Of a stretch of 64,000 bases of DNA, positions 1,440-49,730 are shown piece by piece; positions within the stretch are counted from its first letter, which is position 1, and each line of letters opens with the position of its first letter. The translations under genes and the position numbers were made by a program. The notes under the pieces were generated by a model. It saw only the letters and a program-made list of their open reading frames with translations. It was not told the origin of the DNA and did not search any database. The stretch lies in NCBI RefSeq assembly GCF_963921235.1, contig NC_086108.1, forward strand, positions 10,478,001 to 10,542,000. Reading direction: 5' to 3'. Origin of the DNA: Mobula hypostoma (lineage: Eukaryota).

Positions 1440-4400
1440 AGCCGCGCTAACGTAAGCCTCCCTCATTCATATGCATGAGACGCTGAGAGAGCTGCCGAGC
1501 TCGCCCTCCTCCAGCCCGCGTTTCTGTGCGCCCGTCCCGAAGCGGAGAATGCCTTCAGAATTGGCTGCTGGGAATCGGCAAACTGAGGGAGAGAGAGGCG
1601 GGCAGTGAAAGGGTTCGTCGCTCCCGACTCGGGCAGAGGATGTGGAGACTCTCACTTCCCAGATCGGAACGGATGTAGTCAGGATTAAGAGGAGGCGATC
1701 GGGAAAGGGGAGAGCTGCTGTTCCAGATGTTGCTGCAGCTGTGCGGTCTGCGGGTCTGTGACGGGCTCCGTGATAGGCAAACATCTGGCTAGCCCCCAGC
1801 CTCTGCAAGGACAGCGGGGTGAGTCTCTGGAGGGCAGTGAAGCGGGGTGTGAAGCCTGCCTGAGACCACACTGAGCTCTACTGAGCCTCGGGTACAGCCG
1901 CACCGCCAGTGAGGATGCCCCTAGTTCCCCTCCAGTTGATCGTAACCTTCCTGAGCGAGAGACTTTTCCGGGAGGCTCGGCAGACGGTCCGGGAAGCCCA
2001 TTCCTTCTAGCGCCGTGTACCCCCAAGGACAGGATTGCCAGCCTGGGGGCTGTCCTGCTCTTGGCCGGGAGCCGGAGCCTTCGCAAGTGTGGGTGGAAGG
2101 AAAGACTACGAGCGGTAGCCGGGAACTGACCGTGGTGCTGAAACCATCGGCAGTGAGGAGGGACGAATTTGAAGTTCCAGCGCCGTGAATTATTTCGTTC
2201 TTGATGCAAAGCTGCCTTCAGCCACCCCCCCCGAAGGCTGTGGGTTTTCTGAGGTCCTTTCGCATAAGGGGGACAGAATTTTATCCCTCCCCGGAACACC
2301 GAGGGTGCAAAGGGAGAAGTACTGAGACTGAACGGAACTGCAAATTCAATATACCGTTGGTCGTCTCCATCCGCCGCCCGATTCTGTTTAATGTTTCCTC
2401 CTAAAGGTAAACGGCTCTGCACATCCTCTTTCCTCGCCGAGGAGCGCGGTGTTTATTGCAGTATCTTAAACGATCGTTTTATAAGAGTCTTTTCCGTGTG
2501 CAGGTGGTGAGCGGGGTGTCAGTGCGTTGCCTTTCTGATTCTGCTAAATGTTCGGGTTCAACCAATCTGTAAAATGCAACTCTACCCATAATATTGTAGT
2601 GGCGCCGCAAAAAGGGGGTTACACTTTGCCCAGTTAAAAAAAGCAAAAAATATCTCTGCATTTAACTTTTCAATATGGCTGGGCTAATATTACACTACAT
2701 GAATAATATATGCCCAAAAATTCCTTCAGTCCTTGCATAGGTCTTATCGTCCTTCACCTAATTTGATATAGTTGACTTGTTTTCCCCTGAACCACTATAT
2801 TTAGCGTGCGAATCCCGGCTGACCGTCACTGGTTTAATGCAAGAAGCTCTGTAACAAAGCATGATTCAACACAAAACTGGCCAAGATTTCTAGGTGCAAA
2901 GACTGAAGGAAATTTTGAAAGCCATCACACTGTTCCCATTACAAATAATGAGTTGTGGTTCGGGTAATAAAATGCAGGAATGTGTCTGTATTCCAGAGCA
3001 ATGTTGCAGTGGCGAGCTCGCCCGTGCATAACACCGAAGGTGCTATTCCTGCATCACTCTCTCTATTACCAGGTCGGACGACGGAGACAGATAGGCGAGT
3101 CTGTGCTCACATCTCTTCGGTTACCACCAGTTCTCTCACCGAGTGAAACTTTCAGAATTTCGGTCACTTATGACGGGAGTGCATGGCGATGATTCTGCAT
3201 AAAACAAATTCCCGGGGCTGGCGTGTACCCCAGTGCAAGACAAAAAAAACCCACCGCGCTGGCAGGAGAGCACGAGGGTGGGGTTAGTGGGGCGTGGACG
3301 TTGGGAGTGGGTGTGAATGAGAAGAATTCTAAAGCAATGTAGAAAAGTGTGATCTGTGCACTGAAAGATATTCCCAATTGGGATGTTTGTGCCACACAAG
3401 TTGCATAAGTAGTTTTCGAAATTGAATAATGGACTGCTGTTAATTCGCACCGCTCCCTATTTTCTGCTGTTCCGTGTTAAACTGTGTCAGTGACCGGTCA
3501 CTGAAATGATCCATAGCCTTTTGTACACTATTATTCTCCTCAGTCTCGTCGCTGAGCCGGCGAGAAGCAGAACTGCAGCTACTCCGCTGGAGGCGGCTGC
3601 CCGAGCAGTGTCTTGTTTTAGTAACACCAATGGCGATTTCATTCTTCGTTAACCGCCGTTTCAAAGTTTAACGACTCCAGATCGGTCACCTGGCATTTTA
3701 CTGACAACATGGAGGGCCGCGCCCGGAGAAGCGGAAATATAAAAATCCCAGCGCACAGCTGTGGCTGAGATTTATCCGGCGGTCATCAGTACTCCAAGCC
3801 GTTGCACGTTGACCGAGCGTGGCTCCTGTCCTCTGCTTCCAATGTCGCCGAGCACAAGCACTTCCATTTCCGTACCTTGGTAATCGAAATACAGGAATAA
3901 TTAGCCGGCTCACAATACAAGTACTATATTATTAAAAGCAAATTCTTTCCTTGTCAGAATTATATTCCTCCACGCGCTTATTCCATAATATTCAGCTCCG
4001 CTGCTCAACCTTGGTCACAGGGAGCCAATCAGGGAATTCAAACCCCACCCGAATGCTGACAATCCCAGCTCAGTCCGAGTTTGCGGACTTTCAACTTCTT
4101 TCCCCCGAAGCAGGGTTTGCAGGATATTGGGCTCGGAATATTGACAACTGAACGCGAACAGAGGTGGACCCACGCTGGGAACGGGTCCCTGGCCGAGTCT
4201 GGAACAGATAAAAATACTGAGTCAGTGCCGGCCGATCTCCCACACCCGAGGACTCGTTCAGTCCTTCGGCAGAATCGACACCCACCCGGGTTGGAATCGT
4301 GGAACGAGGCTCCAAATCAGGGAATTTCTACAGGAGATGGAAAAGTGGTGGCTAAACTTATGCCGTGAGTGGAGGCGTCATTAAGAATGCATTGAAGGTC

Positions 4401-17044: not shown

Positions 17045-18140
17045 GACCATAAAATACAGGAACAGAATTAGTCCATTCGGCCCATCTAGTCTGCTCTACT
17101 CATCATAGCTGACTTCTTAGCCCTCTCAACACCATTCTCCTGCATTCTTTCCATAACCTCTGACACCCTTGTTGAGGGTCCCTTTCACCCATCCCACAGT
17201 CTCTTTGACACACTACCGTCAGGAAGGAGAAATGGGAGTATCAGGAACAGGACAAGGACTGCCAAACTAGATAGCAGCTTCTTCCCTCGTTGTGAGACTT
17301 ATCAGTACCCTGCTACCACTGAGATCTCGTCATGAGGTCGGTGAAATATTTACTCTTTACCTGTGCTTTGCACTATATGCATTTTGAATTATACTTTAGT
17401 GACTTATTTGTGGTAATAGTTATGCGTGATATATGTTTTATGGATGTGCCATGATCCAGATGAACGTTGTTTCGTTTGGTTGTGTATGCATACGTACAGT
17501 CAGATAACTATAAACTTCAATTACTAATTAAGAAATAATCAACCTCTACTCGGCTTCCACTGCCGCCTGTGGCAAGGAATTCCCCAGATTCACCACCCAC
17601 TGGCCGAAAATACGTTCCTCCTTATCTCTGTTCTATAGGGACAACCTTCTATTCTGAGGCAATGCCCTCTGGTCCTAGACTCTCCCACTGTTAGAAGCAT
17701 CCTCTCCATTTCCAGTCTACCTATGCCTTTCGATATTCGATAGGTTTCAACCAAAGCCCGATCTGCCATCTGGAACGACCTGTCCTGAATGCGGAAGAAC
17801 TTTCAGAGCCAAGATCGGACTTATAAGCCACTTGAGATCAACAAAACGAAGACCATCATCCTCGACCTCGAGGGATAGCCACGACGAGGTTTCAATGAGA
17901 TTCACCACCCCCACAACCATCCTTTTAAACTCTAGTGAGTACAGGCCCAGAGCCAACAACTGCTCCTCACACATTAACCCTTTCATTCCTGGGATCATAT
18001 TCGTAAACCTCCTCTGTACCCTCTCCCAATCCAGCACATCCTTCCTTAGATGTGAGGTTCATAACTGCTCACAACATTCCAAGTGTGGTCTGACCAATGC
18101 CTTATGAAACTTAAACATTACATCCTTGCTTACATATTCC
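17045..18140 (-). mobile_element. CR1 3' fragment with nested Rex1 (17175-17520, +) and RTE tail (17751-17886, +)
   Basis: ERVQRRFTNMIPGMKGL..GLYSLEF on minus; host collinear across both inserts. Confidence 0.8.
17751..17886 (+). mobile_element. 136-bp 5'-truncated RTE-clade insertion
   Basis: TCPECGRTFRAKIGLISHLR C-terminal zinc motif, (ACG)n tail, TSD AGGTTTCAA at 17742-50 and 17887-95. Confidence 0.8.
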
Positions 18141-25376: not shown

Positions 25377-27468
25377 ATAGAACATAGAACATAGAATAGT
25401 ACAGCACAGTACAGGCCCTTCGGCCCACAATGTTGTGCCGGCCCTCAAACCCTGCCTCCCATATAAGCCCCCACCTTAGATTCCTCCATATACCTGTCTA
25501 GTAGTCTCTTAAACTTCACTAGTGTATCTGCCTCCACCACTGACTCAGGCAGTGCATTCCACGCACCAACCACTCTCTGAGTAAAAAACCTTCCTCTAAT
25601 ATCCCCTTTGAACTTTCCACCCCTTACCTTAAAGCCATGTCCTCTTGTGTTGAGCAGTGGTGCCCTGGGGAAGAGGCGCTGGCTATCCACTCTATCTATT
25701 CCTCTTAATATCTTGTACACCTCTATCATGTCTCCTCATCCTCCTTCTCTCCAAAGAGTAAAGCCATAGCTCCCTTAATCTCTAATCATAATCCATACTT
25801 TCTAAACCAGGCAGCATCCTGGTAAATCTCCTCTGTACCCTTTCCAATGCTTCCACATCCTTCCTATAGTGAGGTGACCAGAACTGGACACAGTACTCCA
25901 AGTGTGGCCTAACCAGAGTTTTATAGAGCTGCATCATTACATTGCGACTCTTAAACTCTATCCCTCGACTTATGAAAGCTAACACCCCATAAGCTTTCTT
26001 AACTACCCTATCCACCTGTGAGGCAACTTTCAGGGGTCTGTGGACATGTACCCCGAGATCCCTCTGCTCCTCCACACTACTAAGTATCCTGCCATTTACT
26101 TTGTACTCTGTCTTGGAGTATATCCTTCCAAAGTGTACCACCTCACACTTCTCCGGGTTGAACTCCATCTGCCACTTCTCAGCCCACTTCTGCATCCTAT
26201 CAATGTCTCTCTGTAATCTTTGACAATCCTCTACACTATCTACAACACCACCAACCTTTGTGTCGTCTGCAAACTTGCCAACCCACCCTTCTACCCCCAC
26301 ATCCAGGTCGTTAATAAAAATCACGAAAAGTAGAGGTCCCAGAACAGATCCTTGTGGGACACCACTAGTCACAACCCTCCAATCTGAACGTACTCCCTCC
26401 ACCACCACCCTCTGCCTTCTGCAGGCAAGCCAATTCTGAATCCACCTGGCCAAACTTCCCTGGATCCCATGCCTTCTAACTTTCTGAATAAGCCTACCGT
26501 GTGGAACCTTGTCAAATGCCTTACGAAAATCCATATAGATCACATCCACTGCACTACCCTCATCTATATGCCTGGTCACCTCCTCAAAGAACTCTGTCAG
26601 GCTTGTTAGACACGATCTGCCCTTCACAAAGCCGTGCTGATTGTCCCTGATCAGATCATGATTCTCTAAACGCCTATAGATCCTATCTCTAAGAAACTTT
26701 TCCAACAGCTTTCCCACCACAGACGTAAGGCTCACTGGTCTATAATTACCCAGACTATCCCTACTACCTTTTTTGAACAAGGGAACAACATTCGCCTCCC
26801 TCCAATCCTCCGGTACCATTCCCGTGGACAACGAGGACATAAAGATCCTAGCCAGAGGCTCAGCAATCTCTTCCCTCGCCTCGTGGAGCAGCCGGGGGAA
26901 TATTCCGTCAGGCCCCAGGGACTTATCTGTCCTAATGTATTTTAACAACTCCAACACCTCCTCTCCCTTAATATCAGCATGCTCCAGAACATCAACCTCA
27001 CTCATATTGTCCTCACCATCATGAAGTTCCCTCTCATTGGTGAATACCGGAGAGAAGTATTCATTGAGGACCTCGCTCACTTCCACAGCCTCCAGGCACA
27101 TCTTCCCACCTTTATCTCTGATTGGTCCTACCTTCACTCCTGTCACCCTTTTTTTCTTCACATAATTGAAGAATGCCTTGGGGTTTTCCTTTACCCTACT
27201 CGCTAAGACCTTCTCATGCCCCCTTCTTGCTCTTCTCAGCCCCTTCTTAAGCTCCTTTCTTGCTTCCCTATATTCCTCAATAGACCCATCTGATCCTTGC
27301 TTCCTAAACCTCATGTATGCTGCCTTCTTCCTCCTGACTAGATTTTCCACCTCACTTGTCACCCATGGTTCCTTCACCCTACCATTCTTTATCTTCCTCA
27401 CCGGGACAAATTTATCCCTAACATCCCACAAGAGATCTCTAAACATCGACCACATGTCCATAGTACAT
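25377..27468 (-). mobile_element. Young 5'-truncated CR1 LINE (559-aa ORF2 RT fragment)
   Basis: ORF 25782-27461 with complete RT motifs, premature stop and frameshift near the C-terminus; (TTCTATG)n tail; TSD AGTCTC at 25371-76 and 27469-74; nested in an older CR1 (25278-28085). Confidence 0.95.
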
Positions 27469-31190: not shown

Positions 31191-32532
31191 TCCAACAGCA
31201 GCCCATCAAGCTGTTGATTGTTCTGTCTCCTGGAACGTACTGAAGGTCACCCAGCTGTGGTCAATAATATGGCTGTGGTGATGTCCTGATAGCAGCGCCA
31301 GAGGAGTAGCAGCAATCTACCCTTCTCAAAGGATCTACACTCAGCCACATCCCACACCCACACCATCAGCTCTGTCCGGGATATATCCACGAGCACTTCC
31401 GACAACTGCATCATTGTCTCTTTCCAATATCTATCCTCGACCCCTTCCCACACCCACACAATTGCCTCTGTACAGGATCTTTCCTCGATGCCTTCCCACA
31501 CACTCACCAACACCTGTGTCCAGCATCTATCCTTGAGCCTTCCCTCACCCACGCAATCGCCTGTCCAGGATATATTGTCGAGCACTTCCGATTCCCGCAC
31601 AATTGCCTCTGTCCAGGATCTATCCTTGATCCTTTTGCACGTCTATCCTTGATCCTTTTGCTCTGTCCAGGATCTATTGTGGGCCTCTTCCCACACCCAT
31701 ATCATAACCTCTGTACAAGATCCATCCTTGACTCCCACCTACACACACCATCACCTTTGTCCACCATCTATCTTCGAACCCCACCCACTCCTACACCATC
31801 ACCTCTGTCCATGATTTATCCTTGAACCCCACCCACACATACATCATCAGCTCTGTCTAGTATCAATCCTCATTCCCTTCCCACACCCACATTGATATGA
31901 TACTAATAGTGATACTCAATCCCCACCGAAACACACACCATCACCTCTGTCCAGAGTCTGTCCTTTTCACCTTCCAACACCGCACCATCCCCACTGTCTA
32001 GGATCGATCCTCGACCTTTCCCCACACCCACACCATCGTGTCTGTACAGGATCTTTCTGGACCCCAAACTACAGACACACCTTCACCTCTGTTCGAGAGT
32101 AGATCTTGTGCAGAGGTGATGTTGTGGGTGAGGGAGTCCTTGATCCCTTCTCACACGCACACCATCATTCTCCAGCGAGGATACATCCTCGATCCCCACA
32201 CAAACACACACCTTCACTTCTTTCCAGGATATTTCCTCGATCCCCACACAAACATGAACCATTGCCTCTGTCCAGAATCTATCCTTGATGTCTTCCAACA
32301 CCCACAACATCCCTAATTCCAGGATCTACTCCTGAACCCCACCAACACCCACACCATCGCCACCGTCCAGGATCTATCGTGAACCCCCTTCCCACACCCA
32401 CACCATAATCTCTGGCAATGATCTATCTTCAACCCCTTTCGACACCCACAAGATCTATTCTTGATCCCTTCCCACAACCACACAATTGCCTCTGTCCAGG
32501 ATATATCCCCGAGCAATTCTGACACCTGCATT

Positions 32533-33265
32533 AGGGTTCAATAGGTACATTTAATGTCAGAGAAATGTATATAATACACATCCTGAGATTCTCCTTCTTC
32601 ACAGACATCCACAAAAACAGAGGGATGCCCCAAAGAGTGAATTACAGTTAGAACATTAGAATCCCAAAACATCCCTCCAGCTCCCCCCTCCCGCACATAA
32701 GCAGCAGCAAGTCAACAACCCCCCAACCAGCAAAAAAGCATCAGCACCCTCCACCGAGCACTCAAATGAAGCATCAATAAAGATACAGACTTGCAGCACC
32801 CAAAAACTACTCGTTTACTCTTTAATTTGACATACTACTGGCTCTCTCTCTCCCTAATAGGGGAAAAAGAGGTGTCCCGTTTCACAGCGAGAGGGGAGAC
32901 GTAACAAACAACTTGCTGGTTTATGATGGCAGCTAACCTGCTGCTCCCGATGTTCCGTGTTCTCCCACTTCGGCCAGGGACACTGATCAAGAATCGGCAC
33001 ATCCACAGAGCCACAAAATCCCAGAACCTTGAAGGCGCGCTTGTCTTCCAGGCCGCGTCCTTGGGATATCAAGAGCGGCCGGTCGTGAGGCCCTGAGAGC
33101 GGGTCCCATTCCTGCAAAGGACTGAAGTCAGAGTGTAACTCCAGGTCAGGGTCTTCAAAAGAACCCTCACACCCTGAAAAGGACAAAAAAAAAAGATATG
33201 TGAGATAGAAATAAAGCTGTTTCTGAAGATGCAAGTAAAGAAGTTGCCGTTTAGCGCCATCTTAA
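32533..33265 (-). mobile_element. ~730-bp non-coding retroposon with AAGATGGCG 5' end and Rex1-like 3' tail
   Basis: CGCCATCTT at 33255-63; minus-strand 3' end GAATCTCAGGATGTGTATTATATACAT..ATTAAATGTAC..TTGAAC. Confidence 0.65.
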
Positions 33266-34027
33266 CTTTGCCCCTCCCCAGCCTCTTTCTAGGATCTATG
33301 TCAACCCCTTCCCACAAACACACCACAGTCCAGGATCTATCCTCAAGCTCCCCTCACAAAGACACCATCAGTTCATTCCAAGATCTATCCTAATCCCCTT
33401 GCCACCCCACGCCATCACCTTTGTCTATGATCTATCCTTGACCCCCCACCCAGACCACACCATTGCCACTGTCCAGGATGTTTTTTTAGACTCCTTCCCA
33501 CACTCACACCATCAGCTCTGTCCAGGATCTATCTTCAATCTCTTCCCACACTCACACCATCAGCTCTGTCCAGGATCTATCTTCAATCTCTTCCCACACT
33601 CACACCATCAGCTCTGTCCAGGATCTATCTTCAACCTCTTCCCACACTCACACCGTCAGCTCTGTCCAGGATCTATCTTCAATCTCTTCCCACACTCACA
33701 CCATCAGCTCTGTCCAGGATCTATCTTCAATCTCTTCCCACACTCACACCATCAGCTCTGTCCAGGATCTATCTTCAACCTCTTCCCACACTCACACCAT
33801 CAGCTCTGTCCAGGATCTACCTGCAATCTCTTCCCACACTCATACCGTCAGCTCTGTCCAGGATCTATCTTCAACCTCTTCCCACACTCACACCATCAGC
33901 TCTGTCCAGGATCTATCTTCAGTCTCTTCCCACACTCACACCATCAGCTCTGTCCAGGATCTATCTTCAATCTCTTCCCACACTCACACCATCACTACTG
34001 TCCAGGATCTATCCTTGATCCGTATCC

Positions 34028-35279
34028 TGTCATACGGCAGTGGCTGGGAACGGACCCAAGTGCAAGACACAGACACTGAAGTACCAGGGACAGGACTAGG
34101 ATACAGGGTGAGGGCAAGGACATGGACACGAAAACCAGGAACCCGGAACAGGACCGGACAAGAGAGCTAGGAGCCTGGGCTTGGACTCCGAACCAGAGAC
34201 TGGACAAGGACCCAGTACCTGGGTCTTGCTTCTGGCTCAGACCCCAGAACTAGGCAAGGACGAGACTCGGCTGGAAGGCAGGACGAGGCTGGAGCCTTCA
34301 GGCTTGAGGCTAGAGACTAGAGGCGAGGCTTGGCAGGAGGCTGGAGGCTGGAGTCTTCAGACTTGAGGCTAGAGACTAGAGGTGAGGCTTGGCAGGAGGC
34401 TGGAGGCTTCAGACTTGAGGCTAGAGACTTGAGGCGAGGCTTGGCAGGAGGCTAGAGGCTAGAGTCTTCAGGCTTGAGGCTAGAGGCTAGAGACTTGAGG
34501 TGAGGCTTGGCAGGAGGCTGGAGACTTCTCCTGGGCAGGGCGCGAATCACCACCTGATGGAGGCAAGGGACAAGAAGGGACAGAACCAACCGCAGGTAAC
34601 GGCAAGACTGCCTGGCTTACCCAATGGAGGCAAGGGAGAGGAAGGGACAGAACCAACCGTAGGTAACGGCAAGATGACCTGACTTACCCGGCGGAGGCAA
34701 GGGACAGGAATGGAGCTAGGTACGGGGTGGCTCCAGGACAAGACTGAAGGCGAGACGAGGCAAGAGTTACCAGCAAGACCAGCAAGGCTTCAGGCAATGC
34801 AAGGCGAAACAAGAACTTCAGGCAAGCTGAGAGTTACCGGCAAGACAAGGCAAGACTTCAGGCGAGGAAACAGAAGGCAGGGGAAGGGATACAAGGAGTA
34901 AGGACAAGAACAATCCAGCAGCCATGCCTAGGTCTCTGAAGGTATTTATACAGCCAGCCCCAACGAGCATCAGCTGACTCAATTAGAGCTCAACAAGAAT
35001 AAACTCAGGGTAGACAGGAAAACCTGGAGCAAGGGTCGATGGACTGGACGGTGAACCGGAATACGGACTTCACGGATTGGACCATGACAGTAACCCCCCC
35101 CCCCCCCCCGCCCCAATGGGAGCCTCCTGACAACCAAACAGGGTATCCAGACTATGGATGACCCGGGCGAGTGAGAGGGTATTTAACAGAAAGGAACCCC
35201 GGGTGGCAAGAGGAAAACGACAGTGTCTGTGTCGCTGGGTCCACGGTTGGCTGGATTGTTCTGTCATAGGATGGTGGCT
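34028..35279 (-). mobile_element. Gypsy-like LTR (34028-35089) plus short internal stub and remnant of a second LTR
   Basis: TGTCAT...ATGACA termini, minus-strand TATAAATA near 34945, G-rich PPT at 35090-35115, internal tandem repeats 34295-34525, TGTCATA..GTGGCT repeated at 35262. Confidence 0.8.
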
Positions 35280-35747
35280 TTTCCACACCCACACCATAAC
35301 CCCTGTCCAGGATCTGTTGTGGACTGCTTCCCACCCCCACTCCATTGCCACTGTATAGGATCTATCCTTGATCCCTTTCCACACCCACACCATCACCCCT
35401 GTCCAGATTCTATCCTCCACCCTCGCCCACACCATTGCCTCAGTCCAGGATCTATCCTTGACCCCTTCCCTCATCCTCACCATCATTTCTGTCCACAACT
35501 TCCTTCAACACCTTCCGACACCCACAATGTCACCTCTGTACAGGATCTATTCTTGATCCCTACCTACAACCACAGCATTGCCTTGTCCAAAATCTACCTT
35601 TGACCCCTTTCCCACACCCAAACTATCTACTCTGTCACAATCTACCCTGGGCACTTCCCCACACCCATAAGATCACCTCTGTCCAGGATCTATCCTGACC
35701 CCCTTCTCACAACCACACCACCACCTTTATTCAGGATCGATCTAATC

Positions 35748-35906
35748 TTTCCAGTCCTGATGAAGGGTCTCGTCCTGAAACATCAACTGTTTACTCTTTT
35801 ACATAATTGCTGCCTGGACTGCCGAGTTCCCCCAGCGTTCTGTGTGTGTTGTTTACCAGGATGCTTCCTGGTTTAGAGGACATGTGCTGTAATGAAAGGC
35901 TGGATA
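35748..35906 (+). mobile_element. Penelope terminal fragment (hammerhead-like) fused to a CR1 fragment
   Basis: CAGTC CTGATGA AGG..CCT GAAAC ATC AACTG, then TTTACCAGGATGCT (FTRML); same junction at ~42008. Confidence 0.7.
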
Positions 35907-38625
35907 ATTTTTAATAGGGGAAGGGCAAATTATGAGGCTATAAGGCTCGAACTTGCGGGTGTGAATTGGGATGATGTTTTTGCAGGGAAATGTACTATGG
36001 ACATGTGGTCAATGTTTCGGGATCTCTTGCAGGATGTTAGGGATAAATTTGTCCCGGTGAGGAAGATAAAGAATGGTAGGGTGGAGGAACCATGGGTGAC
36101 AAGTAAGGTGGAAAATCTAGTCAGGTGGAAGAAGGCAGCATACATGAGGTTTAGGAAGCAAAGATCAGATGGGTCTATTGAGGAATATAGGGAAGCAAGA
36201 AAGGAGCTAAACAAGGGGCTGATGAGAGCAAGAAGGGGGCATGAGAAGGCCTTGGCGAGTAGGGTAAAGGAAAACCCCAAGACTTTCTTCAATTATGTGA
36301 AGAACAAAAGGATGACAGGAGTGAAGGTAGGACTGATTAGAGATAAAGGTGGGAAGATGTGCCTGGAGGCTGTGGAAGTGAGCGAGGTCCTCAGTGAATA
36401 TTTCTCTCCGGTATTCACCAATGAGAGGGAACTTGATGATGGTGAGGACAATATGAGTGAGGTTGATGTTCTGGAGCATGTTGATATTAAGGGAGAGGAG
36501 GCGTTGGAGTTGTTAAAATACATTAGGACTGATAAGTCCCTGGGGCCTGACGGAATAGTCATAGTTATAGTCATACATTTTCTTGATCCCGAGGGAAATT
36601 GGGTTTCGTTACAGTTGCACCAACCAAGAATAGAGTATAAATATAGCAATATAAAACCATAAATAATTAAATAATGATATGTAAATTATGTCAGATGGAA
36701 ATAAGTCCAGGACCAGCCAATTGCTTCAGGGTGTCTGACCCTCCAAGGGAGGAGTTGTAAAGTTTGATGGCCAGAGGCAGGAATGACTTCCTATGACGCT
36801 CAGTGTTGCATCTGGGTGGAATGAGTCTCTGGCTGAATGTACTCCTGTGCCCAACCAGTACATTACGTAGTGAATGAGAGACATTGTCCAAGATGGCATG
36901 CAACTTAGACAGCATCCTCTTTTCAGACACCACCGTCAGAGAGTCCAGTTGCATCCCCACAACATCACTGGCCTTACGAATGAGTTTGTTGATTCTGTTG
37001 GTGTCTGCTACCCTCAGCCTGCTGCCCCAGCACACAACAGCAAACATGATAGCACTGGCCACCACAGACTTGTATAGAGATGGCTCTGACCCTTCTTGTA
37101 GACAGCCTCAGTGTACTTTGACCAGTCTAGGCTGCTCCACGAGGTGAGGGAAGAGATTGCTGAGCCTCTGGCTAGGATCTTTATGTCCTCGTTGTCCACA
37201 GGAATGGTACCGGAGGATTGGAGGGAGGCGAATGTTGTCCCCTTGTTCAAAAAAGGTAGTAGGGTTAGTCCGGGTAATTATAGACCAGTGAGCCTTACGT
37301 CTGTGGTGGGAAAGCTTCTTAGAGATAGGATCTATGGGCATTTTGAAAATTATGGTCTGATCAGGGACAGTCAGCATGGCTTTGTGAAGGGCAGATCGTG
37401 TCTAACAAGCCTGATAGAGTTCTTTGAGGAGGTGACCAGGCATACAGACGAAGATAGTGCAGTGGATGTGATCTACATGGATTTTCGTAAGGCATTTGAC
37501 AAGGTTCCACATGGTAGGCTTATTCAGAGAGTCAGAAGGCATGGGATCCAGGGAAGTTTGGCCAGGTGGATTCAGAATGGCTTGCCTGCAGAAGGCAGAG
37601 GGTCGTGATGGAGGGAGTACATTCGGATTGGAGGGTTGTGACTAGTGGTGTCCCACAAGGATTTGTTCTGGGACCTCTGCTTTTCGGGATTTTTATTAAC
37701 GACCTGGATGTGGGGGTAGAAGGGTGGTTTGGCAAGTTTGCAGAAGGCAAAAAGGTTGGTGGTGTTGTAGATAGTGTAGAGGACTGTCAAAGATTGCAGA
37801 GAGACATTGAAAGGATGCAGAAGTGGGCTGAGACGTGGCAGATGGAGTTCAACCTGGAGAAGTGTGAGGTGGTACACTTTGGAAGGACAAACTCCAAGGC
37901 AGAGTACAAAGTAAATGGTAGGATACTTGGTAGTGTGGAGGAGCAGAGGGATCTGGGGGTACACAGATCCCTGAAAGTTGCCTCACAGGTAGATAGGGTA
38001 GTTAAGAAAGCTTATGGGGTGTTAGCTTTCATAAGTTGAGGGATAGAGTTTAAGAGTTGCGAGGTAATGATGCAGCTCTATAAAACTCTGGTTAGGCCAC
38101 ATTTGGAGTACTGTGTCCAGTTCTGGTCACCTCACTGTAGGAAGGATGTGGAAGCATTGGAAAGGGTACAGAGGAGATTTACCAGGATGCTGCCTGGTTT
38201 AGAGAGTATGGATTATGATCAGAGATTAAGGGAGCTAGGGCTTTACTCTTTGGAGCGAAGGAGGATGAGAGGAGACATGATAGAGCTGTACAAGATATTA
38301 AGAGGAATAGATAGAGTGGATAGCCAGCGCCTCTTCCCCAGGGCACCACTGCTCAATACAAGAGGACATGGCTTTAAGGTAAGGGGTGGGAAGTTCAAGG
38401 GGGATATTAGAGGAAGGTTTTTTACTCAGAGAGTGGTTGGTGCGTGGAATGCACTGCCTGAGTCAGTGGTGGAGGCAGATACACTAGTGAAGTTTAAGAG
38501 ACTACTGGACAGGTATATGGAAGAATTTAAGGTGGGGGGTTATATGGGAGGCAGGGTTTGAGGGTCGGCACAATATTGTGGGCCGAAGGGCCTGTACTGT
38601 GCTGTACTATTCTATGTTCTATGTT
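35907..38625 (+). mobile_element. Young 5'-truncated CR1 LINE, ORF2 pseudogene, interrupted by Rex1
   Basis: ORFs 35892-38561 nearly identical to the 25377-27468 copy; TTCTATG tail. Confidence 0.95.
36558..37128 (-). mobile_element. Rex1/Babar 3' fragment inserted in CR1
   Basis: VASAIMFAVVCWG..RINKLIRKAS..CNTERHRKSFLP; (TATGAC)n tail; target lost TTCCCC relative to the sister CR1. Confidence 0.9.
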
Positions 38626-40774: not shown

Positions 40775-41460
40775 TTAACAACAGGAATTCTGCAGATGCT
40801 GGAAATTCAAGCAACACACATCAAAGTTGCTGGTGAACGCAGCAGGCCAGGCAGCATCTCTAGGAAGAGGTACAGTCGACGTTTCAGGCCGAGACCCTTC
40901 GTCAGGACTAACTGAAGGAAGAGTGAGTAAGGGATTTGAAAGTTGGAGGGGGAGGGGGAGATCCAAAATGATAGGAGAAGACAGGAGGGGGAGGGATGGA
41001 GCCGAGAGCTGGACAGGTGATAGGCAAAAGGGATACAAGAGGATCATGGGACAGGAGGTCCGGGAAGAAAGACGGGGGGGGGGACCCAGAGGAAGGGCAA
41101 GGGGTATATTCAGAGGGACAGAGGGAGAAAAAGGAGAGTGAGAGAAAGAATGTGTGTATAAAAATAAGTAACAGATGGGGTACGAGGGGGAGGTGGGGCA
41201 TTAACGGAAGTTAGAGAAGTCGATGTTCATGCTATCAGGTTGGAGGCTACCCAGTCGGAATATAAGGTGTTGTTCCTCCAACCTGAGTGTGGCTTCATCT
41301 TTACAGTAGAGGAGGCCGTGGATAGACATGTCAGAATGGGAATGGGATGTGGAATTAAAATGTGTGGCCACTGGGAGATCCTGCTTTCTCTGGCGGACAG
41401 AGCGTAGATGTTCAGCAAAGCGGTCTCCCAGTCTGCGTCGGGTCTCACCAATATATACCA
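40775..41460 (-). mobile_element. Young Penelope-like element 3' part (GIY-YIG C-terminal half and terminal repeat)
   Basis: Minus frame YIGETRRRLGDRFAEHLRSVRQRKQDLPVATHFNS...LEEQHLIFRLGSLQPDSMNIDFSNFR*. Confidence 0.9.
40873..40910 (-). ncRNA. Minimal type I hammerhead ribozyme motif
   Basis: UAGUC-CUGACGA-AGG(GUCUCGG)CCU-GAAAC-GUC/GACUG: complete core, stems I and II, palindromic ACGU stem III. Confidence 0.75.
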
Positions 41461-41464
41461 GGGT

Positions 41465-42007
41465 TTCAATTCTACTTCCTGTTCCCGTTTCAACATGTCA
41501 GTCCTTGACCTCCTCTACTGCTGCAATCAGGCTTAATTCAGGTTGGAAGGGCAACACCTTATATTCTTTCCATCTTGGTAGTCTCCAACCTGATGGCATG
41601 AAATTTGATTTCTTGAACTTCTGGTATTTGCACCCTCTTACTCCATTCCCCATTCCTGCTGGCTGCTCATACCTTACCTCCTTACCTGCCCATCACCTCT
41701 CTCTGGTGCTCCTCCCTTTTCCCTTTATCCATGGTTTTCTACCCCTTCCTATCAGGTTCCCCCTTCACCAACCCTTTATCTCTTTCTCCGATTAACTTCC
41801 CAGCTCTTTACTTCAACCCCTCCCCCCTCCTGGTTTCGCCTCTCACCTGTCACCTTGTCCTTCTTCCTCTCCTCCCCTTACCTTCTTGCTGTGACTTCTT
41901 ATTGCTTCCAGTCCCGATGAAGGGTCTTGACCCGAAACATCAACTGTTTACTCTTTTCCATAAATGCCTCCCGGACTGCTGAGCTCCTCCAGCACTTTGT
42001 GTGTATT
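41465..42007 (+). mobile_element. Older Penelope 3' fragment, head-to-head with the previous copy
   Basis: LGSLQPDGMKFDFLNF; decayed hammerhead at 41909-41946. Confidence 0.8.
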
Positions 42008-46044: not shown

Positions 46045-46400
46045 TCATGTGCTGTGTCGTATGGCATAAGTGATCGTGGTCTCATGACTATGGTTGTTCT
46101 TGGCAAATTTTCCCACAAAAGTGGTTTGCCATTGCCTTCTTCTGAGCAGCGTCTTTACAAGACGACAGCCATTAACAGTTCTCTTCAGAGGTTGTCTGCC
46201 GGGCATTAGTGGTCACATAACCAAGACTCATGACATGCACCAGCTGCTCAAATGACCATCTCGTGCTTGCTCCCATGGCTTCGCGTGACACTGATCGGGG
46301 CCTGAGCCGGTGCTGCACCTTGCCCAAGGGTGAGCTGCAGGCCAGCGGAGGGAAGGAGCACCTCACAGCGCCTTTGGTAGAGATGTATCTCCTACTCCAC
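46045..46400 (-). mobile_element. BovB/Bov-A-like non-autonomous element
   Basis: Homologous to 10105-10435. Confidence 0.65.
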
Positions 46401-46894
46401 CACTCACCCCAGAAGGCAGAAGGGAGAATGGAGAATGGCCAGTATGTCCGGTACCCCTGATGATACTGTTAGACGGGGCGGAGGTGAGTAACAGGCCTGT
46501 GATGGACTGGACAATGTTTACTGCTCTCTGCGCGTTCTGTTGATGCAGAGTGGAACAGTTGCATAAACACAAGTTGCTGCCTGATTTGCTGAGTTCCTTC
46601 ATCAGTTGTGTGTGTTGCTCGAGGCCCAGCCCACAGGATACTTTCTACAGCAGCTTTCTGTGGAAGTTTGACAGAGTCCTTGCAGACAAGCCAAATCTCC
46701 TTGGGCACTTAAGAAAGTAAATCCTCTGAAGTTTTTCCTTGATCACCTTAGGGACCAGGTGAGGCTGTTGTTGATGTAGACGCCTGGGAACCTGAAGGCA
46801 TCGGTCATTGCTATAGCAACTCCAATAATGAGTACAGCATAGTGTTTACCACACCTCCCCCCAACTTCCTACAGTTAATAAATAACTCTTTCAT

Positions 46895-48342
46895 TTTGCC
46901 AATGCTGAAGCTGGTCCTCTGTCTCATTATTGTTATTGATCCTGCCAATAACAATGGTGTTATTAGAGAACGTAAAGACTGTATTGGCGGAGTACCTGGT
47001 AAAAGTGTCAGCAGTGTACAGGGAACGGTGCGGGACGCACAACCCTGGGATAGACAACAGACAATAGGTGCAGGAGTAGGCCATTCAGCCCTTCGAGCCA
47101 GCACCGCCATTCACTGTGATCATGGCTGATCATCCACAATCAGTACCCTGTTCCCGCCTTCTCCCCATATCCCTTGACTCCGCTATCTTTAAGAGCTCTA
47201 TCTAACTCTTTCTTGAAAGCATCCAGAGAATTGGCCTCCACTGCCTTCTGAGGCAGAGCATTCCACAGATCCACAACCCTCTGTGTGAAAAAGTTTTTCC
47301 TCAACTCCATTCTAAATGGTCTACCCCTTATTCTTAAACTGTGGCCTTTGGTTCAGGACTCCCCCAACATCGGGAACATGTTTCCTGCCTCTAGCGTGTC
47401 CAATCCCCTAATAATCTTATATGTTTCAATCAGATCCCCTCTCATCCTTCTAAATTCCAGTGTATACAAACCCAGTCGCTCCAATCTTTCAACATATGAC
47501 AGTCCCGCCATCCCGGGAATTAACTTCGTGAACATACGCTGCACTCCCTCAATAGCTAGAATGTCCTTCCTCAAATTTGGAGACCAAAACTACACACAAT
47601 ACTCCAGGTGTGTATTGGTGAGACCACACCTGGAGTACTGTGTGTAGTTTTGGTCTCCAAATTTGAGGAAGGACATTCTAGCTATTGAGGGAGTGCAGCG
47701 TATGTTCACGAAGTTAATTCCCGGGATGGCGGGACTGTCATATGTTGAAAGATTGGAGCGACTGGGTTTGTATACACTGGAATTTAGAAGGATGAGAGGG
47801 GATCTGATTGAAACATATAAGATTATTAGGGTATTGGACACGCTAGAGGCAGGAAACATGTTCCCGATGTTGGGGGAGTCCTGAACCAAAGGCCACAGTT
47901 TAAGAATAAGGGGTAGACCATTTAGAATGGAGTTGAGGAAAAACTTTTTCACACAGAGGGTTGTGGATCTGTGGAATGCTCTGCCTCAGAAGGCAGTGGA
48001 GGCCAATTCTCTGGATGCTTTCAAGAAAGAGTTAGATAGAGCTCTTAAAGATAGCGGAGTCAAGGGATATGGGGAGAAGGCGGGAACAGGGTACTGATTG
48101 TGGATGATCAGCCATGATCACAGTGAATGGCGGTGCTGGCTCGAAGGGCTGAATGGCCTACTCCTGCACCTATTGTCTGTTGTCTATCCCAGGGTTGTGC
48201 GTCCCGCACCGTTCCCTGTACACTGCTGACACTTTTACCAGGTACTCCGCCAATACAGTCTTTACGTTCTCTAATAACACCATTGTTATTGGCAGGATCA
48301 ATAACAATAATGAGACAGAGGACCAGCTTGAGCATTGGCAAA
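46895..48342. repeat. Near-perfect palindrome: 718-bp arms, 12-bp spacer, containing a CR1 3' end plus flank
   Basis: 46895-47612 is the reverse complement of 47625-48342; mirror-image ORFs in the ORF track. Confidence 0.97.
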
Positions 48343-48629
48343 GGACACCTAGATCTGCAAAATTGAATATAGCATGGGAGCTGTGCTTAGCCACACAGTG
48401 ACAGCTGTAAAGTGAGTGGAGCAGGGAGCTAAGCATAGAGTCTTGTGGTGCACCTGTGCTGATAGTAATTGTGAAGGAGATGTTGGTGCCAATCCAAAAT
48501 GATTAAGGCTTTCAAAAGAGCAAATCAAGGTTTCAAGACGGCACTGGTGACACATGGTGATGTTTCACAAGCAGCTCACAAAACTTCTAGATATACTTCT
48601 AAGCAACTATTACTGCAATAGGCCGCCCA

Positions 48630-49110
48630 TAATTTCCTTTAAAGTCAAGAGGAAGAAGAAGGCGTACTTATGGTTTAGGAAGCAAAGATTAGACTCAGCT
48701 TTGAAGAGTTATCAGATAGCCAGGAAGGAGTTTAAGGAGGGACTTAGGAGAGCTAGAAGGGGACATGAGAAGGCCTTGGAAAGTAGGATTAAGAAAAACC
48801 CAAACGCATTCTATATATATGTGAAGAGCAGGAAGATGACTAGAGAAAGGGTAGATGCTTTCAGGGATAAAAGAGAAAACATGTGCCTGGAAGCGTAGGA
48901 GGTAGGGGAGGATCATTACCGAATACTTTGTTTCAGTATTCATCACTGACAGGCACCTTGATGAATGCAAGGATGGCATAGAGCAGGCTAATATGTCAGA
49001 ACATGGTCACATTAAGAAGCAGATGTGTTGGAGCTTTTGAAAAACATTGGGAAAATAAGCCCCTGGGGCCGGGTGGGATATATCCCATTACAGAGGGAAG
49101 AGATTTCCGC
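48630..49110 (+). mobile_element. CR1 ORF2 internal fragment
   Basis: RRARRGHEKALESRIKKNPNAFYIYVKS. Confidence 0.85.
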
Positions 49111-49164
49111 ATCTTTGTTGTATGTTGTATGTTGTGTGTTCTACGTTGAATGTTCTATGTTCTC

Positions 49165-49730
49165 CAAATCAGAATCAGGTTTAATCTTGCTGGCATATGT
49201 CATGAAATTTGTTGTTATCCAGCAGCAGTACATTGCAATACATAGTAATAAAAGCTATATATATATAAAACATTAAATTAAATAAATAGTGCAAAAACAT
49301 AGAGAAAAAAACATAGAGAAAAAAGTGATGAGTTAGTGTTCATGGGCTCAATGTCCATTCAGAAATCAGATGGCAGAGGGAAAGAAGCTGTTCCTGAATC
49401 GTTGAGTGTGTGCCTTCAAGCTCCTGTACCTCCTCCCATTTGGTAGCAATAAGAACGAGGGTGATGGGGGTCCTAAATGATGGATGCCACCTTTTTGAGG
49501 CACTGCTCCTTGAAGATGTCTTGGATGCAGGGGAGACAAGTGCCCATGATGAATGGGACTAAGTTTACAACTCTCTGTAGCTTATTTTGATCCTGTACAT
49601 TAGCCCATGCCTCCGCGTGCCAGACGGTGACGCAGCCAGTTAGGTCGTTTTCCACGTACATTTATAGAAATTTGTGAGTGTATTTGGTGATATAACAAAT
49701 CTCCTGAAACTCCAGGTGATACATAGCCCA
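49165..49730 (-). mobile_element. Rex1/Babar 3' fragment
   Basis: LTGCVTVW..KLQRVVN..CLKKVASII; AACCTGATTCTGA tail. Confidence 0.85.

What the first reader, a model, noticed from the sequence alone, without database searches (positions are those of the whole stretch)
46895..48342. 1.45-kb near-perfect fold-back palindrome duplicating a CR1 end together with its flank
Seen: two 718-bp arms (46895-47612, 47625-48342) with only about 3 mismatches found by eye (GCTGAAG/GCTCAAG, GLD/VLD codon, AATACT/AGTACT), separated by 12 bp (TATTGGTGAGAC). The spacer is CR1 sequence continuing the right arm (VLVRPHLEY). Each arm also carries ~155 bp beyond the CR1 3' tail, which is old Rex1 sequence. Inference: this is one recent DNA-level inverted duplication (fold-back priming or template switch), not two independent insertions. 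Beyond the right arm the sequence resumes in a different Rex1 RT remnant, suggesting a coupled deletion. Established: long palindromes with tiny spacers form hairpins/cruciforms, are unstable, and give ~700-bp dsRNA if transcribed.
Basis: partly seen in the sequence, partly recalled or inferred. Interest (0 to 1): 0.8.

Follow-up and report, generated by a model that had tools for sequence, protein, structure and literature searches.

The report
Young fold-back duplication of retrotransposon DNA
A 1.45-kb near-perfect DNA palindrome, likely from a ray, is a young mirror-image copy of an old jumping-gene end plus its flank, likely made by a DNA-copying template switch that likely also deleted neighbouring DNA; it is a clean but ordinary case of a known kind of rearrangement, with no function shown.

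Summary
Confirmed: two 718-bp arms, 3 mismatches, 12-nt spacer. Each arm is 563 bp of a CR1-type LINE 3' end plus 155 bp of an older Rex1-like remnant. The left arm continues into that remnant, so the right arm is the new copy. Contigs from public runs bridge the right outer junction in two samples and branch exactly at one arm mismatch. A related species has the CR1 here but only one arm. Arm divergence is 0.42% against 2.9% between species, and both arms share six near-private CR1 changes, so duplication came long after insertion. Depth ratios of 1.45 and 1.64 favour a heterozygous carrier. The spacer is inverted, as in inter-strand template-switch events, and both junctions likely carry short templated inserts. 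The central junction was not displayed in the read output; the ancestral allele, deletion size and transcription are unknown. Best reading: a microhomology-driven replication template switch with deletion (0.6). The scan noted shorter template-switch palindromes in other genomes and Penelope fold-backs in this one, but no CR1 case. Known kind; interest 0.3.

The parts
46408..46894 (-). Rex1-like LINE remnant A, left flank (end of RT and following region); continues in register from the left arm, so this side is the ancestral join
   Evidence: tblastn of RT homologues runs 47024 to 46408 across 46895; 12 of 12 homologues scanned carry RVT_1 and 7 of 12 carry PF09004; the name Rex1/Babar is recalled
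46895..47049 (-). Left arm, outer part: 155 bp of remnant A
47050..47612 (-). Left arm, inner part: 3' end and tail of a CR1-type LINE (stop codons at two places, shared with the right arm)
47613..47624 (+). 12-nt spacer, colinear with the right arm and so inverted relative to the ancestral left arm. The last 9-10 nt match the CR1 family, the first 2-3 nt do not. Equivalent parse: perfect symmetry around a 3-nt loop (47620-47622) plus one 5-nt insert within 47611-47617
   Evidence: (loose ends)
47616..47626 (.). Native 4-bp inverted repeat with 3-nt loop (TGGT-gag-ACCA); candidate primer for the switch
   Evidence: its role is inferred
47625..48187 (+). Right arm, CR1 part (new copy); carries the derived letter at 47832
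48188..48342 (+). Right arm, 155-bp copy of remnant A
48343..48352 (.). 10-nt junction insert holding GACACC, the Asp-Thr codons expected to follow the FAD of remnant B, in inverted orientation (likely templated)
   Evidence: bridged by contigs in runs X1 and X5
48353..48529 (-). Rex1-like remnant B, a different copy (covers the same RT stretch as remnant A), cut off at FAD

Best explanation
The palindrome is a young inverted duplication of an old CR1 3' end plus 155 bp of its flank, likely made in the germline by a microhomology-driven template switch during DNA replication, likely with loss of the DNA that lay to its right, and it likely has no function. Steps: (1) the CR1 inserted into remnant A before the split from species B and then mutated (shown). 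(2) A nascent strand moving rightwards left its template at about 47612 and, after a slip of a few bases, primed on the opposite parental strand at or beside the native 4-bp inverted repeat (inferred). (3) It copied about 730 nt backwards, giving the inverted spacer and the right arm (structure shown, process inferred). (4) It rejoined inside remnant B through a 10-nt, partly inverted insert, dropping the CR1 5' part, the 5' part of remnant A and the 3' part of remnant B (junction shown, deletion inferred). The allele is probably still polymorphic (inferred from depth).
For: Arms differ at 3 of 718 positions, against 26 of 892 letters between species A and B in four orthologous contigs (Fisher p about 1e-4; 21 differences expected if as old as the split). 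Six near-private CR1 letters (family share 97.7% or more for the other letter) are in both arms. Species B: one 852-nt contig covers 48151-48342 at single-copy depth (42.9 against 44.5-57.3) and runs on unbranched for 660 nt, with no second contig over 48213-48328. If it follows the left flank it would end at 46235, inside a dispersed repeat. Species A: a contig bridges 48342|48343 in X1 (48300-48600, 0 differences) and in X5, a second sample (33 nt left of the junction). The arm contig ends at 48329 in both X1 and X2, one base before the 48330 mismatch, as expected if both arm versions exist. An inverted repeat with an inverted spacer is the outcome of type 3-1-2-4 switches, which the paper ties to inter-strand copying (PMC5453318, passages). 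Two of three mismatches lie within 14 nt of a junction (p about 0.004, post hoc).
Against: No listed contig displays the central junction; the region was swamped by family copies and most rows were not shown. X1 and X2 may be the assembly's own source, and X5 need not be another animal. The ancestral allele was not seen, so switch point 4 and the deletion are inferred. The microhomologies are short (1-4 bp). The templated-insert readings are post hoc, with chance levels of about 5% (3 of 64) and 0.8%, and three sources compete for the 2-3 foreign spacer letters. A crossover between the arms could flip the spacer later (own knowledge), so its orientation is not proof of an inter-strand switch. 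Yeast ODIRA junctions favour repeat units of 40-80 bp, longer than the 11-22 nt here (PMC10766183, passages). Arm-to-arm conversion could make the event look younger than it is.
Confidence: 0.6

Rival explanations
1. Break-induced fold-back: a double-strand break was resected, the 3' end folded back at the 4-bp inverted repeat and primed synthesis of the second arm, and end joining to remnant B closed the gap. The spacer was then inverted by a crossover between the arms or by resolution of a sister fusion, and the 5-nt central insert came from repair of a later hairpin nick.
For: Dropping one 5-nt block makes the centre perfectly symmetric around a 3-nt loop. Inverted repeats of 5-9 bp with 3-12-bp spacers drive palindromic duplication in Mre11- or Sae2-deficient yeast (review PMC7999016, passages). 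The central insert formally meets the three SD-MMEJ criteria for snap-back synthesis (PMC5728401, passages). Short hairpins prime inverted duplications at break ends (bioRxiv 2024.12.14.628481, passages).
Against: A single intra-strand fold-back from the ancestral left side would leave the spacer colinear with the left arm; it is colinear with the right arm, so a second event is needed.
Confidence: 0.24
2. The duplication is real at its outer ends, but the centre (or the whole) is mis-assembled or a read artefact, for example a longer middle skipped at a hairpin or two haplotypes joined.
For: The central junction was not displayed. The depth ratio of about 1.5 is below the 2 expected for a homozygous duplication. 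The best-holding runs may be the assembly's source.
Against: The right outer junction stands in two samples and the branch at 48329/48330 recurs in two runs. Fold-back artefact reads turn near their midpoint and were almost absent from PacBio HiFi data, at about 0.6% in nanopore genomic data (PMC12870357, passages). A symmetric fold-back read would run back into the left flank and would not create a recurrent junction into remnant B.
Confidence: 0.08
3. The inversion arose while the CR1 was inserting (target-primed reverse transcription with remodelling of a break end), as described for human L1.
For: The turn lies inside the LINE, and L1 insertion can give local inverted duplications and fold-backs (bioRxiv 2024.12.14.628481, passages).
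Against: Both arms share six near-private changes, including both stop-creating ones. Species B has the same insertion with one arm.
Confidence: 0.04
4. The right arm is an RNA-templated insert made by a Penelope-like element, which in this genome often leaves head-to-head arms with host cargo.
For: Unchecked scan notes describe many such inserts in this genome. The spacer plus one base has an exact 13-nt copy 6 kb away in a YIGET motif of a likely Penelope element (label recalled).
Against: No flanking direct repeat of 5 nt or more around the whole palindrome, and only 5-nt chance matches around the right arm. The arms are fully accounted for by CR1 and remnant A. No Rfam family reaches its gathering score in the window. 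Ten or eleven of the 13 letters are also CR1 sequence.
Confidence: 0.04

Closest known systems
Four-point template-switch events, type 3-1-2-4 (Loytynoja and Goldman 2017, PMC5453318; passages read)
   Same: Reverse-complement copy of adjacent DNA, giving an inverted repeat with an inverted spacer; such events are found as human polymorphisms.
   Different: About 730 nt copied here, whereas the paper treats short-range events; extra inserts at both junctions imply more than one round, which that model leaves out; a sizeable deletion is inferred.
MMBIR-type templated insertions (PMC8421209; passages read)
   Same: Inverted copy of a nearby template, short microhomology, multi-template junctions, present as germline variants in humans.
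   Different: That search was limited to read-length inserts with templates within 100 bp; this event is several times longer.
Inverted duplication with deletion: fold-back model (Hermetz 2014, PMC3907307) and ODIRA model (PMC10766186; PMC10766183); passages read
   Same: Inverted duplication next to a deletion, 2-8 bp inverted microhomology, local templated inserts at junctions.
   Different: Human cases listed are hundreds of kb to Mb, terminal, with spacers of 766-70,466 bp. ODIRA starts from an inverted triplication with two turns and favours 40-80-bp repeat units. Here there is one turn, an interstitial site and a 12-nt spacer.
Small inverted triplications (PMC13334657; passages read)
   Same: Sub-kilobase scale, short spacer (median 30 bp), replication origin of the error.
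   Different: Those have three copies (DUP/IN/DUP); here there are two copies and a different right flank.
Maize Mu killer (PMC3440606; abstract and passages read)
   Same: Inverted duplication of part of a transposon, with arms of similar order (about 1.3 kb), able on paper to give a long hairpin RNA.
   Different: Mu killer is transcribed and silences its family; no transcript across both arms, no small RNA and no silencing is shown here.

Membership tests
Template-switch event type 3-1-2-4 | Inserted fragment is the reverse complement of adjacent sequence | tested here: met
   715 of 718 pairs; the left side is the ancestral join
Template-switch event type 3-1-2-4 | Spacer inverted relative to the ancestral strand | tested here: met
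   9-10 of 12 spacer letters continue the right-arm CR1; a later flip is not excluded
Template-switch event type 3-1-2-4 | Return point 4 lies downstream of points 1 and 2 on the ancestral allele | tested here: inconclusive
   Both flanks exist in species B, but no displayed contig joins them
Template-switch event type 3-1-2-4 | One short-range round explains all changes | tested here: not met
   2-5 extra letters at the centre and 10 at the right junction; it works like this class but is a multi-step case
ODIRA inverted triplication | Junction at a pre-existing short interrupted inverted repeat | tested here: inconclusive
   A native 4-bp repeat is present, but the ancestral allele was not seen
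ODIRA inverted triplication | Three copies with two turning junctions, including an origin | tested here: not met
   Two copies and one turn; origin not testable
Human fold-back inverted duplication with terminal deletion | Single-copy spacer of 766 bp or more and a terminal deletion | tested here: not met
   12-nt spacer; DNA continues on both sides
SD-MMEJ snap-back junction | Repeat motif of 4 bp or more within 30 bp, with primer and microhomology of 1 bp or more | tested here: met
   6-bp inverted match between 47597-47602 and 47612-47617; weak, since 3 of 64 possible inserts would pass
LINE-insertion-coupled inverted duplication | Duplication as old as the insertion | tested here: not met
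   Shared near-private changes; one arm in species B
Penelope head-to-head insertion | Penelope arms inside a target-site duplication (definition taken from unchecked scan notes) | tested here: not met
Fold-back read artefact | Symmetric read turning near its midpoint, with no new outer junction shared between samples | tested here: not met
   Outer junction in X1 and X5; branch point in X1 and X2; centre not displayed
CR1-clade LINE (arm core) | Homology to the ORF2 end of an RT-bearing LINE and a short-repeat 3' tail | tested here: met
   55% identity over 73 aa to the window element at 38040-38558, whose upstream ORFs carry RVT_1; tail ends at 48187
CR1-clade LINE (arm core) | Assignment to a named family (such as HER1 of sharks and rays) by a repeat library | not testable with these tools
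   No repeat library; HER1 seen only as a table entry in PMC3747384; the names CR1 and Rex1 are recalled
Mu killer-like silencing locus | Inverted duplication of part of an abundant mobile element | tested here: met
Mu killer-like silencing locus | Transcription through the arms | tested here: inconclusive
   Run X5 is only guessed to be RNA; its locus-specific contigs lie in the right flank and 33 nt of the arm
Mu killer-like silencing locus | Small RNAs and silencing of the family in trans | not testable with these tools
   No small-RNA or methylation data

The most novel reading that the evidence does not exclude
A segregating vertebrate 'LINE killer' allele: read-through transcription folds the 718-bp arms into double-stranded RNA that is edited or diced into small RNAs against one of the genome's most abundant young CR1 families, as Mu killer is proposed to do in maize, while the germline tolerates a near-perfect palindrome with a 12-nt spacer.
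Probability: 0.05. Interest if true: 0.75.

Novelty: new member of a known kind. Interest (0 to 1): 0.3.

Why it matters
Long palindromes with tiny spacers are described as unstable and rare in natural genomes, and are proposed as the short-lived precursors of larger inverted copy-number variants (PMC10766186, passages). Inverted Alu pairs with a 12-bp spacer stall forks in primate cells (PMC7999016, passages). A natural germline example with 718-bp arms, junctions still readable, a one-arm orthologue in a relative and probably the ancestral allele on the other chromosome is a tidy test case for how such events form and decay, at a size between the short switches and the clinical ones. It is one instance in repeat DNA, with no coding exon recognised in the window and no function shown, so it does not change a model.

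Tried and rejected
No whole genome was held, so no genome-wide count of such palindromes was possible. A CR1 family pattern found 0 stretches in metagenome contigs; the CR1 protein found 0 relatives among 21 pattern matches in viral contigs; the word-based protein search for remnant B found nothing, but the full HMMER search did. No RNA holder was on record; this says nothing on expression. Run X5 has no locus-specific cover over 48213-48309 and none carrying the private CR1 letters; this blank is not used as evidence. Its bridging contig has 37 unaligned letters before 48310 that the output did not show; splice, editing, a cDNA switch or another allele all remain open. The joint 47612 to 47777 in table 5 occurs in both species with only 20 letters on one side and was set aside as another CR1 locus. 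All 282 non-repeat ORFs of 45 aa or more were scanned (267) with no Pfam match, so no host exon could be named; short exons would be missed. Rfam: 0 matches; tRNA genes: 0. Mismatches 47599/47638 and 46907/48330 could not be polarised from the output; only 47832 could (right arm derived). Literature: no paper on such a palindrome in sharks or rays turned up (one unrelated listing, none). These searches cover open-access text only, no supplements were read, and supplements of the bioRxiv preprint were closed. Scan look-ups for this locus and its relatives were empty.

Full report
Observation. The palindrome is as described: arms 46895-47612 and 47625-48342, 718 nt each, ungapped, with three mismatches (46907/48330, 47405/47832, 47599/47638) and a 12-nt spacer. 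A self-search of the window gave no other near-perfect adjacent inverted repeat. As RNA the region is predicted to fold into one rod of about -1480 kcal/mol, which follows from the symmetry and says nothing about expression.

Anatomy. The inner 563 bp of each arm encode the end of a LINE ORF2, 55% identical over 73 aa to another element in the window whose upstream frames carry RVT_1; I call it CR1 from recall. The outer 155 bp belong to a different LINE. A HMMER search with the right-flank peptide gave 293 relatives at E 0.001 or better, of which 150 were returned; 12 of 12 scanned carry RVT_1 and 7 of 12 also PF09004, a pairing I recall as typical of Rex1/Babar. Aligned back to the window, these proteins run on the minus strand from 47024 to 46408, across the left arm's outer edge (remnant A), and separately from 48529 to 48353 (remnant B). 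The two remnants cover the same RT stretch, so they are different copies. The left arm is therefore in its ancestral place and the right arm is the new copy. The host is likely a ray; this comes from unchecked scan notes on the same genome and my recognition of the repeats.

Is it real? The run index listed 23 runs; four from one sample of species A held 0.79-0.83 of the words. I laid four runs on 47575-49300: X1 and X2 (species A, one sample, possibly the assembly's source), X5 (species A, another sample, guessed RNA) and X6 (species B). All are contigs. X1 has a contig 48300-48600 with no differences that bridges the right outer junction. X5 has one from 48310 to 48578 (one difference, 33 letters left of the junction, then 37 unaligned letters not shown). 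X2's listed flank contig starts at 48370 and does not bridge. In both X1 and X2 the arm contig ends at 48329, one base before the 48330 mismatch, as expected where two arm versions part. The central junction is not among the displayed pieces; the area is covered by family copies at summed depth 10^5-10^6 and 79,407 pieces were not shown. So the outer junction and the double state of the arm are shown, and the 12-nt centre rests on the assembly alone. Fold-back read artefacts turn near the read midpoint and were nearly absent from HiFi data (PMC12870357, passages); they would not create a shared junction into remnant B.

Age and zygosity. In species B a single 852-nt contig covers 48151-48342 at depth 42.9 (listed neighbours 44.5-57.3) and runs on for 660 unlike letters without branching; no other contig adds depth over 48213-48328 (84% of that run was read). 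If it follows the left flank it ends at 46235, inside a dispersed repeat; those letters were not shown. Species B thus has the CR1 tail at this site but one arm. Four orthologous contigs differ at 26 of 892 letters (2.9%), the arms at 3 of 718 (0.42%); the ratio is 0.14 (0.03-0.42). Six letters that 97.7% or more of family depth reads otherwise, including both stop-creating changes, are shared by the arms; a seventh (47832) is in the right arm only. The duplication therefore came long after the insertion, unless conversion has homogenised the arms. Arm-to-flank depth is 1.45 (X1) and 1.64 (X2). A simple coverage simulation favours three copies to two (heterozygous) over four to two by about 4-fold for 150-nt reads and about 190-fold for 15-kb reads; the library type is not on record. 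Against this, X1's bridging contig is unbroken where a second allele should branch, and contig depths are coarse.

Junctions. Family contigs diverge from the window before 47615 or 47616, so the last 9-10 spacer letters continue the right-arm CR1 and 2-3 do not. The spacer is thus inverted relative to the ancestral left arm. Removing one 5-nt block within 47611-47617 makes the centre symmetric around a 3-nt loop, closed by a 4-bp inverted repeat native to the CR1. Three sources could explain the foreign letters. One is a snap-back copy of 47597-47602 (6-bp inverted match; 3 of 64 inserts would pass), which meets the SD-MMEJ criteria (PMC5728401, passages). A second is a CR1 variant one substitution away, as at 18087-18099. 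A third is a likely Penelope sequence: the spacer plus one base has an exact copy at 41441-41453, with 6 of 9 upstream letters also agreeing. I cannot choose among them. At the right junction, remnant B stops at FAD. In the homologues 98 of the 113 listed continuations (top 12 triplets) begin Asp-Thr, and the 10-nt insert holds such codons on the opposite strand (chance about 0.8%). There is no microhomology at the arm's outer end and no target-site duplication.

Mechanism. An inverted repeat with an inverted spacer is the product of type 3-1-2-4 switches, 23% of high-confidence human-chimp events with their mirror type; the paper notes that spacer inversion cannot come from an intra-strand switch (PMC5453318, passages). 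I read the event as a nascent strand leaving its template at about 47612, slipping a few bases, priming on the opposite parental strand, copying about 730 nt backwards and rejoining inside remnant B with another short inverted insert, losing what lay between. Multi-template inverted inserts of this type occur as human germline variants (PMC8421209, passages). The structure is shown; the process and the deletion are inferred (0.6). The main rival is a break-induced intra-strand fold-back followed by a spacer flip and repair (0.24); spacer orientation alone cannot exclude it. ODIRA fits less well, since it gives triplications and favours 40-80-bp repeat units. Coupling to CR1 insertion, as reported for L1, fails on the shared changes and the one-arm orthologue. 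A Penelope-made insert, a lead from scan notes, fails on the lack of Penelope arms and of a target duplication.

Function. No Pfam domain was found in any of 282 non-repeat ORFs and no Rfam family in the window; a CpG-rich stretch lies at 2-4 kb. X5 holds flank contigs at depth 3.5-5, but it is only guessed to be RNA. The closest functional model would be maize Mu killer, an inverted duplication of part of a transposon that silences its family (PMC3440606, abstract and passages); nothing here shows that. The likely fate is neutral drift or loss by central deletion; inverted Alu pairs with a 12-bp spacer stall forks and break in model systems (PMC7999016, passages).

Verdict. A very probably real (about 0.9), young and perhaps segregating inverted duplication, likely with a deletion. 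It works like an inter-strand template switch but fails the single-round test of that class, and it is far smaller, with a far shorter spacer, than human fold-back cases (PMC3907307, passages). Two open-access searches found no report for sharks or rays. New member of a known kind; interest 0.3.

Noticed in passing
window 41207-41621: Old head-to-head pair of likely Penelope-type fragments (arms 67% alike); the turn carries a YIGETRRRLGDRF motif whose DNA matches the palindrome's spacer plus one base exactly (13 nt at 41441-41453). The label is recalled.
   Followed up: partly
window 25381-27468 and 35990-38625: Two CR1-type copies of one subfamily, 94-95% alike, in inverted orientation 8.5 kb apart; the right one is interrupted at about 36561-37129 by a Rex1-like piece. 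The left one keeps a 578-aa frame with RVT_1.
   Followed up: no
run X5 contig at window 48310-48578: Bridges the right junction but has 37 unaligned letters before 48310, not shown by the tool; could be editing, a cDNA switch across the stem base or another allele.
   Followed up: no
window 2001-4000: CpG observed/expected 0.87 against about 0.3 elsewhere: a likely CpG island, with no coding exon recognised nearby.
   Followed up: partly
window 31330-35750: Several degenerate arrays of a 48-nt unit (best array 33328-34013, 14 copies, 86% matches).
   Followed up: no
window 46907/48330 and 47599/47638: Two of the three arm mismatches lie within 14 nt of a junction, more clustered than chance (p about 0.004, post hoc); could reflect error-prone synthesis at the switches or weaker conversion at arm ends.
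   Followed up: partly
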